Source of the DNA: a phage
Sequence record: PZ402305.1
Length of the DNA stretch: 64,000 nucleotides
Direction: 5' to 3' (one strand)
Part shown: positions 1 to 2,076 of the stretch, one piece after another
Numbering within the stretch: the first letter of the stretch is position 1
Layout: each line of letters begins with the position of its first letter
Made by a program: the position numbers and the translations under genes
Notes under the pieces: model-generated
What the model saw: the letters and a program-made list of their open reading frames with translations, nothing else
What the model was told of the DNA's origin: nothing
Database searches by the model: none

Positions 1-2076
1 GTGGCAAAGAAAAAGGCAGCAGGTAGTTTAGCTGGAGTAGATATTGAAGTAAAGGCTCAACCAGGTAAACAGACTCTTGCAATGGATTTAATGCCAGAAG
101 TTATGATTTATGGTGGTGCCGCTGGATGTGTTTCGGCTGAAACGGAATATCTTACAAAAGATGGTTGGAGGCAGATTAGTGAATATTCGGGAGAGGATAT
201 TTACCAATACAATCCTAAGAATAAGCGTTTAGAATTGGTAACACCTTATTTTGTAGAATATGATTTAAATGGAGATAACCTATACAGAATAACAAATGGT
301 GTAGGATTGTTCCAAGAACTTAGTATGGAACACCGTTTTGTATTCTATAAGAAAAAGAAATCAAAGAAACATTTCGAGATTCTTGTAGGAGATCTTATTG
401 CATTACAGCAAATAGGAAAACCCCTGCAAGGTTATGTAGAAAATCCATTCGGTAAACGTGTTCCTTTTAACATACCTGGTAAAAAGAGCACTTACTTAAA
501 AATACACGAGGTTATTTCAACAGATGATAAGAAATATTGTTTTGAGACTCCAAGCAGCTATATTGTCTTTAGACGTGGCGATCACTGCTTCGTTACTGGG
601 AATAGCGGCAAGTCTCGTCTGCTATTGCTGAAAGCTTTAAAATACGCCTATAAAGACCCTTTGTTTGGTGGAATACTTTTCCGTAAGAACACCACTGCTC
701 ACCGTAAACCAGGTGGTCTGTTTACAGAAGCAAAACGTTTGTATCTTCCTTTACAACCACACGTAAAAGAAAGTACAATGGATATCATTTTTGAAGCCAC
801 TGGTGGTGGAACCCTCAAATTTGACCATTTGGAAAATGATAACGTAACAGCAGAAACAAACCATCAGGGTACACAGTATTCAATGGTAGGTTTTGACGAG
901 TTAACCCACTTCACACAATATGAAATGCTCTATCTTCTGGGACGTATGCGTTCAGAGTCAGAAACAAGTTTCATGTTGTGCACATGTAACCCTGACGCAG
1001 ATAGTTGGGTTTTGAATTGGGTGTTACCTTATCTTGATGAGGGTGGTTATCCTAGAGAAGATATGTGTGGTAAACAAAAATATTTCATCATTGTTAACGA
1101 TGAACCTGTTTTTGCTGACACACCTGAAGAACTGAAAGAAAAATATCCAGAAAACTGTTTCATGGAAAACCCTAATACAGGGGAGACAGTTGTTATTGAA
1201 CCACAAACTTTCGTATTTATTGGTGGGACAATATTTGATAACCCAGAACTCATTAGGCTTAACCCTAATTACTTAGCACAGCTTAAATCACAAACAGCGA
1301 TCAAAAGAGCACAGCTTCTGGACGGTTGTTGGTTTGCACGTATCCAGAAAGAATCTTTCTTTCAACGTGAATGGTTACATAAAATATCTTATAAAGATGT
1401 TCCTAACAATCTTAAACTAATGCGAGCATGGGATAAAGCGGTTTCAGTTCCTACAGAAACTTACCGTTATCCAGACTATACAACATCTGTCAAAATGGGT
1501 AAAGACCAAGATGGAAATATCTACATCTTTGGCGACTATGATTATGATGCTGTGGATGAGAAAAGTAAAATTTTCGGAAGGTTTCGAAGACTACCTGGGG
1601 AAAGGGATAACCTGATTCTAAATCAATGTAAGATTGATGGACCAGAAGTTACAGTAGTGCTTCCTAAAGACCCATCTGGTGCTGGGACAATAGAATACAC
1701 AGAGTCTGCAAAGAAACTTATTCTAGAGGGTTTTGTTGTTAAACCAGATGCTATGCCAGGTAACAAGAAAAAGCTTCAGCGTTTTATGCCTTTTAGTAGT
1801 GCGTGTCAAAACGGCTTTGTTTATATTGTTGAAGATTCTTTCCCTAATGTGGAAACTTTAACCCACTTTTATAAAGAATTGGAATCTTTCAATGGTGAAA
1901 GATCTACAGCCACTATTAAAGATGACATTCCCGATGCTGCTGCCTCTTGTTTTAATACTCTGTCAAAAGAGAATACTTTCAAAGCAGTAGCAATCCCTAC
2001 AACAACAAATGCTCCTACAGGATACAGTAGAATGAACAGCGGATTTCATCAACCGTATAGTGTCCGTAAAAGATAA
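1..2076 (+). CDS. terL: Large terminase subunit, interrupted by a mini-intein; 5' end may lie upstream of the window
   Basis: 691-aa ORF directly upstream of the portal gene; removing residues 43-201 rebuilds a Walker A P-loop GGAAG|SGKS; ORF begins at window position 1 with GTG. Confidence 0.75.
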   Translation: MAKKKAAGSLAGVDIEVKAQPGKQTLAMDLMPEVMIYGGAAGCVSAETEYLTKDGWRQISEYSGEDIYQYNPKNKRLELVTPYFVEYDLNGDNLYRITNGVGLFQELSMEHRFVFYKKKKSKKHFEILVGDLIALQQIGKPLQGYVENPFGKRVPFNIPGKKSTYLKIHEVISTDDKKYCFETPSSYIVFRRGDHCFVTGNSGKSRLLLLKALKYAYKDPLFGGILFRKNTTAHRKPGGLFTEAKRLYLPLQPHVKESTMDIIFEATGGGTLKFDHLENDNVTAETNHQGTQYSMVGFDELTHFTQYEMLYLLGRMRSESETSFMLCTCNPDADSWVLNWVLPYLDEGGYPREDMCGKQKYFIIVNDEPVFADTPEELKEKYPENCFMENPNTGETVVIEPQTFVFIGGTIFDNPELIRLNPNYLAQLKSQTAIKRAQLLDGCWFARIQKESFFQREWLHKISYKDVPNNLKLMRAWDKAVSVPTETYRYPDYTTSVKMGKDQDGNIYIFGDYDYDAVDEKSKIFGRFRRLPGERDNLILNQCKIDGPEVTVVLPKDPSGAGTIEYTESAKKLILEGFVVKPDAMPGNKKKLQRFMPFSSACQNGFVYIVEDSFPNVETLTHFYKELESFNGERSTATIKDDIPDAAASCFNTLSKENTFKAVAIPTTTNAPTGYSRMNSGFHQPYSVRKR
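127..603 (+). other. Mini-intein (159 aa) inserted in the terminase P-loop
   Basis: Insertion starts with Cys (CVSAETEY) right after GGAAG and ends ...HCFVTGN followed by Ser of SGKS; too small for a homing endonuclease domain; SxxH block-B-like motif. Confidence 0.6.

What the first reader, a model, noticed from the sequence alone, without database searches (positions are those of the whole stretch)
127..603. Mini-intein splitting the terminase Walker A loop
The terminase ORF carries a 159-aa insertion that begins with Cys immediately after GGAAG and ends ...HCFVTGN immediately before SGKS. Removing it rebuilds a canonical P-loop GGAAGSGKS, so packaging ATPase activity would depend on protein splicing. 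The element is too small for a homing endonuclease domain and ends GN rather than the usual HN, which makes it an unusual minimal intein.
Basis: partly seen in the sequence, partly recalled or inferred. Interest (0 to 1): 0.6.

Follow-up and report, generated by a model that had tools for sequence, protein, structure and literature searches.

The report
Self-splicing mini-intein in phage terminase
The DNA-packaging motor gene of this E. coli phage is interrupted, inside its ATP-binding loop, by a small self-excising protein element (an intein); this is a real but ordinary kind of element, and its odd-looking "GN" ending is normal for the large phage intein family it belongs to.

Summary
ORF 1..2076 (+) is the terminase large subunit (TerL) of a Phapecoctavirus-like coliphage. 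Codons 43-201 (nt 127-603) are a 159-aa in-frame insert, GGAAG|C...TGN|SGKS. Removing it gives GGAAGSGKS, the exact Walker A loop of at least 50 insert-free homologues (up to 64% identical, aligned without a gap across the junction).

It lacks an endonuclease domain; about 300-aa relatives carry a roughly 200-aa middle domain at the same site.

"Unusual" is overstated. Penultimate Gly occurs in 182 of 185 family copies and in an experimentally spliced relative.

Whether splicing starts from Cys1 or Cys138 cannot be settled here. Splicing itself is inferred, not shown.

Verdict: new member of a known kind, with modest interest.

The parts
1..2076 (+). Terminase large subunit (TerL) precursor gene, 691 codons plus stop. 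GTG start at window base 1.
   Evidence: ORF listing. PHROG phrog_979 'terminase large subunit' at E 1.4e-216, and Pfam Terminase_6N at 5e-17. 99.6% nucleotide identity to annotated TerL genes of Phapecoctavirus phages. Followed by Mu-type portal and S78 protease genes.
1..126 (+). N-extein, 42 aa, ending ...VMIYGGAAG. This is the first half of the Walker A loop.
   Evidence: Aligns to residues 6-33 of insert-free P0025.
127..603 (+). Mini-intein, 159 aa (HINT domain, no endonuclease domain).
127..168 (+). Block A: C1-V-S-A-E-T6-E7-Y-L-T-K-D-G13-W14. Cys1 is the candidate first nucleophile.
   Evidence: C1, T6, G13 and W14 are invariant in alignment A1. Cys1 is present in 184/185 family copies.
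322..339 (+). Block B core: S66-M-E-H69-R70-F71 (positions B:7 Ser, B:10 His, B:11 Arg, B:12 Phe).
   Evidence: His is 185/185, Ser/Thr 176/185 and Arg 100/185. B:12 is hydrophobic, with Trp in only 2 copies. AceL NrdHF has the same pattern, S65..H68-R69-M70 (alignment; PMC7891396).
349..465 (+). Linker of about 36-40 aa (intein 75-113), in the position where relatives carry a roughly 200-aa middle domain. It includes the conserved basic patch KKKKSKK and a short helix.
   Evidence: BLASTP of the window intein against the 327-aa intein of P0032 aligns 1-77 with 1-75 and 114-159 with 282-327 only. The middle domain of the relatives gives a weak LAGLIDADG_3 hit, E 0.012, below the Pfam cut-off.
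532..558 (+). Block F: K136-Y137-C138-F-E-T-P142-S-S. Cys138 is at position F:4, the class 3 branch-point position.
   Evidence: K, Y and C are invariant in A1. Cys at F:4 is 182/185. The C-x3-P spacing matches AceL NrdHF C124...P128 (PMC7891396).
592..603 (+). Block G: V156-T157-G158-N159 (G:5 Thr, G:6 Gly, G:7 terminal Asn).
   Evidence: Asn is 185/185, Gly 182/185 and Thr/Ser 166/185. Identical to T144-G145-N146 of AceL NrdHF (PMC7891396).
604..2073 (+). C-extein, 490 aa, starting with S+1-G-K-S. This is the second half of Walker A, followed by the rest of the ATPase domain and the nuclease domain.
   Evidence: Pfam Terminase_6N and Terminase_6C hits on the spliced sequence. Gapless alignment with P0025.

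Best explanation
Nt 127-603 encode a splicing-competent mini-intein without an endonuclease domain. It is fixed in the TerL gene of phi92/phAPEC8-like coliphages (Stephanstirmvirinae).

Proposed sequence of events:
1. TerL is translated as a 691-aa precursor whose phosphate-binding loop is broken between Gly42 and Ser202.
2. The 159-aa HINT domain folds and brings the two junctions together.
3. It activates the upstream Gly42-Cys43 peptide bond with block B Ser66/His69.
4. It passes the N-extein, through a thioester on Cys1 and/or Cys138, to the side chain of Ser+1.
5. It releases itself by cyclisation of Asn159. Arg70 probably stands in for the missing penultimate His, as Arg69 does in AceL NrdHF.
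6. This leaves a normal peptide bond that recreates GGAAGSGKS.

Only the spliced 532-aa protein can bind ATP and package DNA.

The element descends from a large, mostly endonuclease-bearing, phage-borne intein family that repeatedly targets the G|xGK[S/T] position of P-loop ATPases. Here the middle domain has been lost and the element is now inherited vertically.

What is shown: the insert, its boundaries, the HINT fold (predicted), the catalytic-residue pattern, the family distribution and purifying selection. What is inferred: splicing itself, the order of the steps, and which cysteine starts the reaction.
For: Boundaries and restored P-loop:
-.
- The insert-free allele sits in a syntenic TerL-portal-protease module on a 141-kb contig. 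A one-piece tblastn alignment across the junction is also seen in Vibrio phage K408 at 56% identity.

Same-site inserts of 146, 158/159 and 246-328 aa:
- They share only the N- and C-terminal halves.

Intein homology and fold:
- Profile hit to 6zgq at E 1e-11 plus weaker hits to PolII, TFIIB, RecA and DnaB inteins.
- AF2 model pLDDT 88.3, pTM 0.79.
- Foldseek top hit 6zgq, followed by hedgehog, BIL and intein structures.

Mobility signature:
- The same intein type occurs in a DnaB-like helicase, a PhoH-like ATPase and RtcB of unrelated phages.
- PHROG's PhoH-like family also matches the insert.
- 11,822 cluster representatives match at E<=1e-3. Of 185 full copies analysed, 78 sit at G|xGK[S/T].

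Catalytic residues near-invariant across 185 copies:
- Cys1 184, His B:10 185, Cys F:4 182, Gly G:6 182, Asn 185, and +1 always Ser, Cys or Thr.

Selection:
- dN/dS is 0.061 in the intein and 0.064 in the extein between the window and Justusliebigvirus ALITA.
- Intein identity tracks extein identity.

Only one TerL place per complete genome, and these phages are propagated isolates.

Experimental precedent:
- AceL NrdHF, with S..HR, C(F:4) and TGN|S, splices in minutes (PMC7891396).
- Mycobacteriophage TerL inteins splice and are required for function (PMC5050341).
Against: - No experimental or proteomic evidence of a spliced 59-kDa TerL exists for this phage group in the literature I could search.
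- Pfam-A and NCBIfam intein/Hint models do not recognise the insert at E<=1. A single-sequence search of PDB finds no intein. The assignment therefore rests on the family profile and a predicted structure.
- Ser+1 is also a Walker A consensus residue, so its conservation is not independent evidence for splicing.
- I could not inspect model coordinates, so active-site geometry is unverified.
- dS is near saturation (pS about 0.66-0.69), so the dN/dS values are approximate.
Confidence: 0.9

Rival explanations
1. Sub-mechanism A (class 1 route). Cys1 performs the N-S acyl shift, Ser+1 takes over the N-extein, and Asn159 cyclises. Cys138 merely replaces the usual block F Asp as an assisting residue.
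For: Cys1 is present in 184/185 family copies, which argues that it is needed. Three copies keep Cys1 but have Ser or Gly at F:4. B:12 is hydrophobic (Phe/Val/Met), as in class 1, and not Trp (PMC7891396). Block B has a class-1-like Ser/Thr-x-x-His.
Against: Cys at F:4 is as invariant as Cys1 (182/185), and Thr/Ser at G:5 is strongly kept. High conservation of Thr at G:5 is described as specific to class 3 (PMC7891396). The nearest characterised relative uses the F:4 Cys and has Ala1.
Confidence: 0.45
2. Sub-mechanism B (class 3 route). [quoted passage not shown] Cys1 is dispensable, or serves as a back-up or redox partner.
For: - The closest solved and biochemically tested relative, by both sequence profile and fold, is a proven class 3 intein. 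It has the same S..H-R, C-x3-P and T-G-N|S motifs and a non-Trp B:12.
- Cys F:4, Thr G:5, Ser+1, a P-loop site and a phage host gene are all class 3 traits (PMC2807308).
- One family member (P0204) has Pro at position 1 but keeps KYCF and TGN.
- Inteins carrying the class 3 triplet together with an N-terminal Ser or Cys are on record (PMC2807308). An N-terminal nucleophile is stated not to be required for class 3 splicing (PMC5222942).
Against: Near-universal retention of Cys1 is unexpected if it is dispensable. Trp at B:12 is absent. Hoffmann et al. define class 3 operationally as lacking Cys at position 1. P0204 is a single metagenomic sequence and could be an error or a dead copy.
Confidence: 0.4
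3. The 159 residues are a permanent, non-excised accessory domain of TerL. They are either a HINT-derived domain that has lost splicing or a dead intein tolerated in the loop.
For: Every Phapecoctavirus and Justusliebigvirus record examined carries it, and it is under purifying selection. That pattern alone would also fit a domesticated domain. One GenBank record calls it an 'N-terminal endonuclease domain'.
Against: - It sits between Gly and Ser of GxxxxGK[S/T], where a 159-aa domain would break the phosphate-binding loop.
- Homologues at 56-64% identity work without it and have an uninterrupted loop.
- Exactly the residues needed for splicing chemistry are the invariant ones.
- The length of the middle part varies freely, 146-328 aa, while the ends are fixed.
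- The same module occurs in unrelated host proteins, always flanked by a +1 Ser, Thr or Cys.
Confidence: 0.04
4. The insert is removed at the nucleic-acid level (self-splicing intron or translational bypass) rather than as protein.
For: Phage genes do carry group I introns, and T4 gene 60 shows translational bypass (general knowledge).
Against: The insert is in frame with no stop codon. It shows protein-level purifying selection with near-saturated synonymous change. It is predicted to fold confidently as a HINT domain. No Rfam family, including introns, matches nt 1-2500 at E<=1.
Confidence: 0.01

Closest known systems
AceL NrdHF-1-1 intein (PDB 6ZGQ; Hoffmann et al. 2020, PMC7891396)
   Different: AceL NrdHF begins with Ala, so it is obligately class 3. 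It is naturally split into 98-aa and 48-aa fragments and sits in a ribonucleotide reductase beta subunit. The window intein begins with Cys, is contiguous and sits in TerL Walker A.
Mycobacteriophage TerL inteins (Kelley et al. 2016, PMC5050341)
   Same: These are inteins inside the ATPase domain of phage terminase large subunits, including the Walker A loop. They were shown to splice, and splicing is argued to be required for pentamer assembly and ATPase activity. The penultimate His is often replaced, including by Gly in the Bethlehem gp51 intein.
   Different: They occur in Terminase_1 and other TerL families of actinophages. The P-loop sites described there (TerL1-a between Lys and Thr, and TerL1-b one residue away) differ from the G|SGKS site used here. 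Most carry LAGLIDADG endonucleases. Their class 3 members have Trp-Cys-Thr and no residue-1 nucleophile.
Canonical class 3 inteins (MP-Be DnaB, Msm/Mch DnaB-1; Tori et al. 2010, PMC2807308)
   Same: Cys at F:4, Thr at G:5, Ser/Thr at +1, a preference for P-loops of helicase-like ATPases including terminases, and a proposed phage origin.
   Different: They have Trp at B:12, penultimate His is usual, and there is no Cys/Ser/Thr at position 1. The window intein has Phe at B:12, Gly at G:6 and Cys1.
Standard class 1 mini-inteins (e.g. Npu/Ssp DnaB, Mtu RecA splicing domain, gp41-1)
   Different: They normally have Asp at F:4 and His at the penultimate position, and no conserved Thr at G:5.

Membership tests
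Intein (HINT-domain protein-splicing element) | In-frame insertion in a host protein whose removal restores a conserved host motif, with insert-free homologues existing | tested here: met
   GGAAG|159 aa|SGKS becomes GGAAGSGKS. At least 50 homologues have the intact loop. The spliced sequence aligns without a gap to P0025 and to Vibrio phage K408.
Intein (HINT-domain protein-splicing element) | HINT fold | tested here: met
Intein (HINT-domain protein-splicing element) | Splicing blocks: A (residue-1 nucleophile), B (hydroxyl-x-x-His), F, G (C-terminal Asn), and a +1 Ser/Thr/Cys | tested here: met
   C1; S66-x-x-H69; K-Y-C138-F; T-G-N159; S+1. The penultimate His is absent, but it is also absent in proven active inteins.
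Intein (HINT-domain protein-splicing element) | Actual excision with ligation of the flanks (protein splicing) | not testable with these tools
   No expression or mass-spectrometry data are available. Splicing is inferred from TerL being essential and single-copy, from purifying selection and from active relatives (PMC7891396; PMC5050341).
Mini-intein (no homing endonuclease) | No endonuclease domain between blocks B and F, and none in another frame | tested here: met
   There are 159 aa in all, with only about 36-40 residues between the two splicing halves, against about 206 in P0032. No ORF of 50 aa or more lies in another frame in 127-603. No endonuclease family is hit.
Class 3 intein | Cys at block F position 4 | tested here: met
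   Cys138. It is invariant in A1 and present in 182/185 family copies.
Class 3 intein | Thr at block G position 5 | tested here: met
   Thr157. Thr/Ser is present in 166/185 copies.
Class 3 intein | Trp at block B position 12 | tested here: not met
   Phe71. The family has Val, Met, Ile, Phe or Leu here, with Trp in 2/185. The proven class 3 AceL NrdHF intein also lacks Trp, having Met.
Class 3 intein | No Cys/Ser/Thr nucleophile at intein position 1 (original and Hoffmann 2020 operational definition) | tested here: not met
   Cys1 is present here and in 184/185 copies. The literature notes that inteins with the class 3 triplet and an N-terminal Ser or Cys exist, and that an N-terminal nucleophile is not required for class 3 splicing.
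Class 3 intein | Splicing proceeds through a block F branched thioester and strictly requires the F:4 Cys | not testable with these tools
   This needs C1A and C138A/S mutants and detection of the intermediate.
Class 1 intein | Residue-1 Cys/Ser/Thr that forms the linear (thio)ester and is essential | tested here: inconclusive
   Cys1 is present and conserved, but whether it is essential is unknown. The usual F:4 Asp and G:6 His are absent.
Terminase large subunit (Terminase_6 / phrog_979) | N-terminal P-loop ATPase plus C-terminal RNaseH-like nuclease, located next to the portal gene | tested here: met
   phrog_979 at E 1.4e-216. The spliced sequence hits PF03237 at 4e-19, and PF17289 only weakly (18.9 bits, below its 22.6 cut-off). 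The portal (PF06074) and S78 protease genes follow directly downstream.

The most novel reading that the evidence does not exclude
The window intein represents a very large phage intein clade that keeps both possible first nucleophiles, Cys1 and block F Cys138, together with the class 3 Thr. This clade could be the long-postulated 'standard phage intein' state from which class 3 inteins arose. It might be able to splice by either route. Alternatively, the two active-site cysteines might form a disulfide that makes TerL maturation, and therefore DNA packaging, redox-gated.
Probability: 0.15. Interest if true: 0.6.

Novelty: new member of a known kind. Interest (0 to 1): 0.3.

Why it matters
Practical value:
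- The terminase of a widely used group of therapeutic and model coliphages (phi92-, phAPEC8- and ESCO-type) is made as a precursor that must splice.
- GenBank records sampled here label the gene only as 'terminase large subunit' or 'hypothetical protein'. One calls the insert an endonuclease domain.
- Pfam and NCBIfam models miss the insert entirely. TerL-based phylogenies, structure predictions and recombinant expression of this protein would be distorted unless the 159 residues are removed.

Conceptual value:
- The case adds nothing new to the established picture that inteins favour P-loops of phage ATPases.
- It does point to a family of thousands of representatives, poorly covered by standard models, whose residue pattern sits between class 1 and class 3.
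- It offers a small, endonuclease-free, easily tested member from a cultivable E. coli phage. Such a member could also be useful as a protein-engineering tool, given how fast its relative AceL NrdHF splices.

Tried and rejected
- Pfam-A and NCBIfam scans of the insert alone gave no family at E<=1. A phmmer search of the single sequence, and of its last 47 residues, against PDB chains gave no intein. Only a profile built from 25 same-site inserts found inteins.
- The search for homologous proteins with the insert alone returned just 5 fragments. The full-length protein was needed.
- I considered that the helix VGDLIALQQ in the linker is a remnant of a LAGLIDADG helix, which a MAFFT alignment suggested. 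BLASTP shows no significant similarity in the middle region, so I dropped the idea. The endonuclease type of the long relatives is only weakly indicated (LAGLIDADG_3, E 0.012, below cut-off).
- A search for a second copy of this intein type in the 64-kb window found none.
- An RNA-level element was rejected: no Rfam hit in nt 1-2500.
- Recent horizontal arrival was rejected. Intein identity tracks extein identity across 34 homologues. GC content is only modestly lower, 34.6% against 38.4%.
- Literature searches for an intein report in phAPEC8, phi92, Phapecoctavirus or rV5 phages found none that was specific.
- The paper that extended class 3 to inteins with an N-terminal nucleophile (Tori and Perler 2011, PMC3133030) is not held. 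I cite only what other papers say about it.
- Model coordinates are not exposed, so I could not measure distances between Cys1, Cys138, His69, Thr157 and Asn159.
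Full report
**1. What is in the sequence**

The window opens with a 2,076-nt ORF (GTG at base 1, 691 codons) on the + strand. It is a terminase large subunit (TerL). PHROG phrog_979 matches at E 1.4e-216 and Pfam Terminase_6N at 5e-17. It is 99-99.6% identical in DNA to the TerL genes of dozens of Phapecoctavirus coliphages such as vB_EcoM_ASO2A, nieznany, tuntematon and ESCO5. A Mu-type portal gene and an S78 protease gene follow it.

Residues 37-42 read Y-G-G-A-A-G. Residue 43 is Cys (nt 127-129). Residues 195-201 read H-C-F-V-T-G-N (Asn at nt 601-603). Residues 202-205 read S-G-K-S. The finding's coordinates and its description are therefore exact. No ORF of 50 aa or more lies in any other frame inside 127-603.

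**2. It is an insertion, and it is polymorphic**

Among the 120 best TerL homologues from public genomes and metagenomes, at least 50 are 470-530 aa long and carry an uninterrupted GG[AS]AGSGK[ST] loop. Thirty-six carry an insert at exactly the same place. Every insert starts with Cys after GG[AS]AG and ends [TS]-G-N before SGKS. The inserts are 146, 149, 158/159 or 246-328 aa long.

The in-silico spliced window protein aligns with insert-free P0025 at 64% identity over 505 residues, with no gap at the junction: VMIYGGAAGSGKSRLLLLKALKYA against VLIYGGAAGSGKSRLILLKALKYA. P0025 lies on a 141-kb contig in the same gene order, TerL then Mu-type portal then S78 protease. Its DNA reads GGT GGT GCA GCA GGA TCT GGT AAG across the site. 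In the phage collection, Vibrio phage K408 (56% identity) and Felixounavirus-type TerLs (about 37%) also align in one piece across the junction. All Phapecoctavirus and Justusliebigvirus records carry the insert.

**3. It is an intein**

Standard libraries do not see it. Pfam-A and NCBIfam give nothing for the insert at E<=1, and a single-sequence search of PDB gives no intein.

A profile of 25 same-site inserts (alignment A1) changes the picture. It matches the solved AceL NrdHF-1-1 intein at E 1e-11, and more weakly the PolII, TFIIB, RecA, DnaB and gp41-1 inteins and a BIL domain.

The invariant columns of A1 are the residues that intein chemistry needs:
- Cys1, Thr6, Gly13 and Trp14 (block A);
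- His69, with Ser66 three residues before it (block B);
- Lys136, Tyr137 and Cys138 (block F);
- Gly158 and Asn159 (block G).

The C-extein starts with Ser.

**4. It belongs to a large, mobile, phage-borne family**

Translated searches with the insert hit internal segments of unrelated phage proteins: RtcB ligase, ribonucleotide reductase, primase/helicase and other terminases.

Reading three of these hits shows the same module, about 320 aa long:
- a DnaB-like helicase of Enterocloster phage CB457P1: GGSG|CVDSETEY...KYCF...ITGN|SGKT;
- a PhoH-like ATPase of Acinetobacter phage P577: GFAG|CVDADTEF...KYCF...VTGN|TSKT;
- RtcB of Corynebacterium phage Lederberg: VDIG|CVDADTEY...AYCF...ITGN|CGM.

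PHROG's PhoH-like family also matches the insert.

A full HMMER scan of 1.84 billion cluster representatives with profile A1 finds 11,822 proteins at E<=1e-3, 3,047 at E<=1e-10 and 141 at E<=1e-30. The 148 best newly returned proteins contain 185 full-length copies, with the following properties.

| Position or property | Count out of 185 |
|---|---|
| Cys1 | 184 |
| B:10 His | 185 |
| B:7 Ser/Thr | 176 |
| B:11 Arg | 100 |
| B:12 Trp (otherwise Val/Met/Ile/Phe/Leu) | 2 |
| F:4 Cys | 182 |
| G:5 Thr/Ser | 166 |
| G:6 Gly | 182 |
| G:7 Asn | 185 |
| +1 Ser / Cys / Thr | 104 / 51 / 30 |
| Inserted at the Walker A position G\|xGK[S/T] | 78 |
| Length 280 aa or more | 160 |
| Length under 200 aa | 12 |

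The window element is thus a rare short member of a family that normally carries a middle domain. BLASTP against the 327-aa intein of P0032 aligns residues 1-77 and 114-159 with the two ends of the long intein. About 206 residues in the long intein are left unmatched, against about 36 here. The middle domain of the long relatives is probably a LAGLIDADG endonuclease, but that evidence is weak (E 0.012, below the Pfam cut-off).

**5. Is it functional?**

Between the window and Justusliebigvirus ALITA, synonymous sites are almost saturated while non-synonymous change is low. dN/dS is 0.061 for the intein and 0.064 for the flanking TerL, and the value is similar in the splicing halves (0.057) and the linker (0.069). 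Across 34 homologues, intein identity falls in step with extein identity. This points to long vertical co-inheritance rather than recent invasion.

Each complete genome has a single TerL locus, and these are propagated, plaque-forming isolates. A 159-residue domain between Gly and Ser of GxxxxGK[S/T] is incompatible with a phosphate-binding loop. This follows from established knowledge of P-loop NTPases, and Kelley et al. make the same argument for TerL inteins (PMC5050341).

The best-supported reading is that the precursor splices efficiently and that packaging depends on it. This is an inference: nothing here shows a spliced product.

**6.

The penultimate Gly is not an oddity of this element. 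It is the family norm (182/185).

The closest characterised relative, AceL NrdHF, ends T144-G145-N146|S. It lacks both assisting histidines, yet splices to near completion within minutes. It is inactivated by G145H, and its B:11 Arg69 contacts the C-terminal scissile carbonyl as a probable substitute (PMC7891396). The window intein has the same Arg (Arg70) after His69. It also has the same Cys-x3-Pro in block F (C138...P142, against C124...P128) and the same T-G-N|S ending. A penultimate-Gly mycobacteriophage intein likewise splices better than its Gly-to-His mutant (PMC5050341).

More distinctive is the combination of Cys at F:4 and Thr at G:5. These are two of the three residues of the class 3 'WCT' signature (PMC2807308). 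They occur here together with Ser+1, a P-loop site and a phage ATPase host, all of which are class 3 traits. Yet Cys1 is retained and B:12 is hydrophobic rather than Trp.

AceL NrdHF (Ala1, Met at B:12) was shown experimentally to use the class 3 route. So the window intein may start from Cys138 (class 3), from Cys1 (class 1), or from either.

Natural variants cut both ways. One family member has Pro at position 1 with KYCF and TGN intact. Three copies have Ser or Gly at F:4 with Cys1 intact. These are single metagenomic sequences and prove nothing. I put the two routes at roughly equal odds.

**7. Rivals**

- A permanent, non-excised domain is very unlikely. Homologues are insert-free, the middle length is variable while the ends are fixed, the invariant residues are the catalytic ones, and the same module appears in unrelated hosts.
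- RNA-level removal is excluded for practical purposes. The insert is in frame, is selected at the protein level, is predicted to fold as a HINT domain, and gives no Rfam hit in nt 1-2500.

**8. Comparison with what is known, and novelty**

Inteins in terminase large subunits, including in the Walker A loop, are well documented (PMC2807308; PMC5050341; bioRxiv 10.1101/2025.01.02.630785). Mini-inteins and penultimate-Gly inteins are also known.

The new points are modest:
- I found no report or annotation of this intein in the phi92/phAPEC8 phage group. One record calls it an endonuclease domain.
- The insertion point G|SGKS differs from the mycobacteriophage TerL1-a and TerL1-b sites.
- Its family, which is large and poorly covered by Pfam and NCBIfam, has a mixed class 1 / class 3 residue pattern.

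I classify it as a new member of a known kind, with interest about 0.3. The most novel reading not excluded is a dual-nucleophile, possibly ancestral-to-class-3 or redox-gated, intein clade. I give that about 15% probability.

Noticed in passing
Related proteins P0153, P0130, P0187, P0142: Some metagenomic polypeptides carry up to 7 matched stretches of this intein type (P0153, 2,583 aa; P0130 has 5). Neighbouring copies can be separated by only 2-8 extein residues, for example P0187 414->417 'SE', P0130 1890->1895 'SGYQ' and P0142 643->650.
   Followed up: no
P0204 residues 31-45; P0144 and P0242: One terminase-like family member has Pro instead of Cys at intein position 1 while keeping KYCF and TGN|SGKS. 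Three other copies keep Cys1 but have Ser or Gly at block F position 4. These are natural variants relevant to the class 1 versus class 3 question, but each is a single sequence.
   Followed up: partly
window 337-381 (intein residues 71-85, FVFYKKKKSKKHFEI): Within the 158/159-aa clade, the most conserved stretch is this basic linker after block B rather than a classical splicing block. It is unchanged in nearly all clade members, with only single substitutions (K-to-R, Y-to-F, or at His82/Glu84) even in P0021, whose splicing halves are about 50% identical. Synonymous divergence in the linker is not reduced, so the constraint is on the protein. Its role is unexplained.
   Followed up: partly
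GenBank records MG065650.1, MG065639.1, OP562383.1, MH252123.1: Records labelled Campylobacter, Acinetobacter or Klebsiella phages carry TerL/intein sequences 99-100% identical to E. coli Phapecoctavirus, or 87% identical as in Justusliebigvirus. The host labels look doubtful, or these phages have an unexpectedly broad distribution.
   Followed up: no
LC483177.1 Klebsiella phage 05F01; PP359570.1 and PQ529420.1: Public annotations do not mark the intein. One describes the protein as a 'large terminase with N-terminal endonuclease domain'. Phage Eryne's CDS starts at record position 82, which gives a 667-aa product.
   Followed up: partly
window 1-3: The window begins exactly at the GTG start codon of TerL, so no upstream ribosome-binding site or terminase small-subunit gene can be examined. 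The source record was probably re-ordered to start at terL.
   Followed up: no
window 1-64000: No tRNA or tmRNA gene was found in the 64-kb window. Only one copy of this intein family is present in it.
   Followed up: yes
L007 1-448 (contig ERR12405939_1414): In one contig carrying the insert-free TerL relative, an IS605 OrfB / Cas12f-like TnpB gene lies about 2.5 kb upstream of terL. It is not among the genes called in the corresponding stretch of the otherwise similar contig L006.
   Followed up: no
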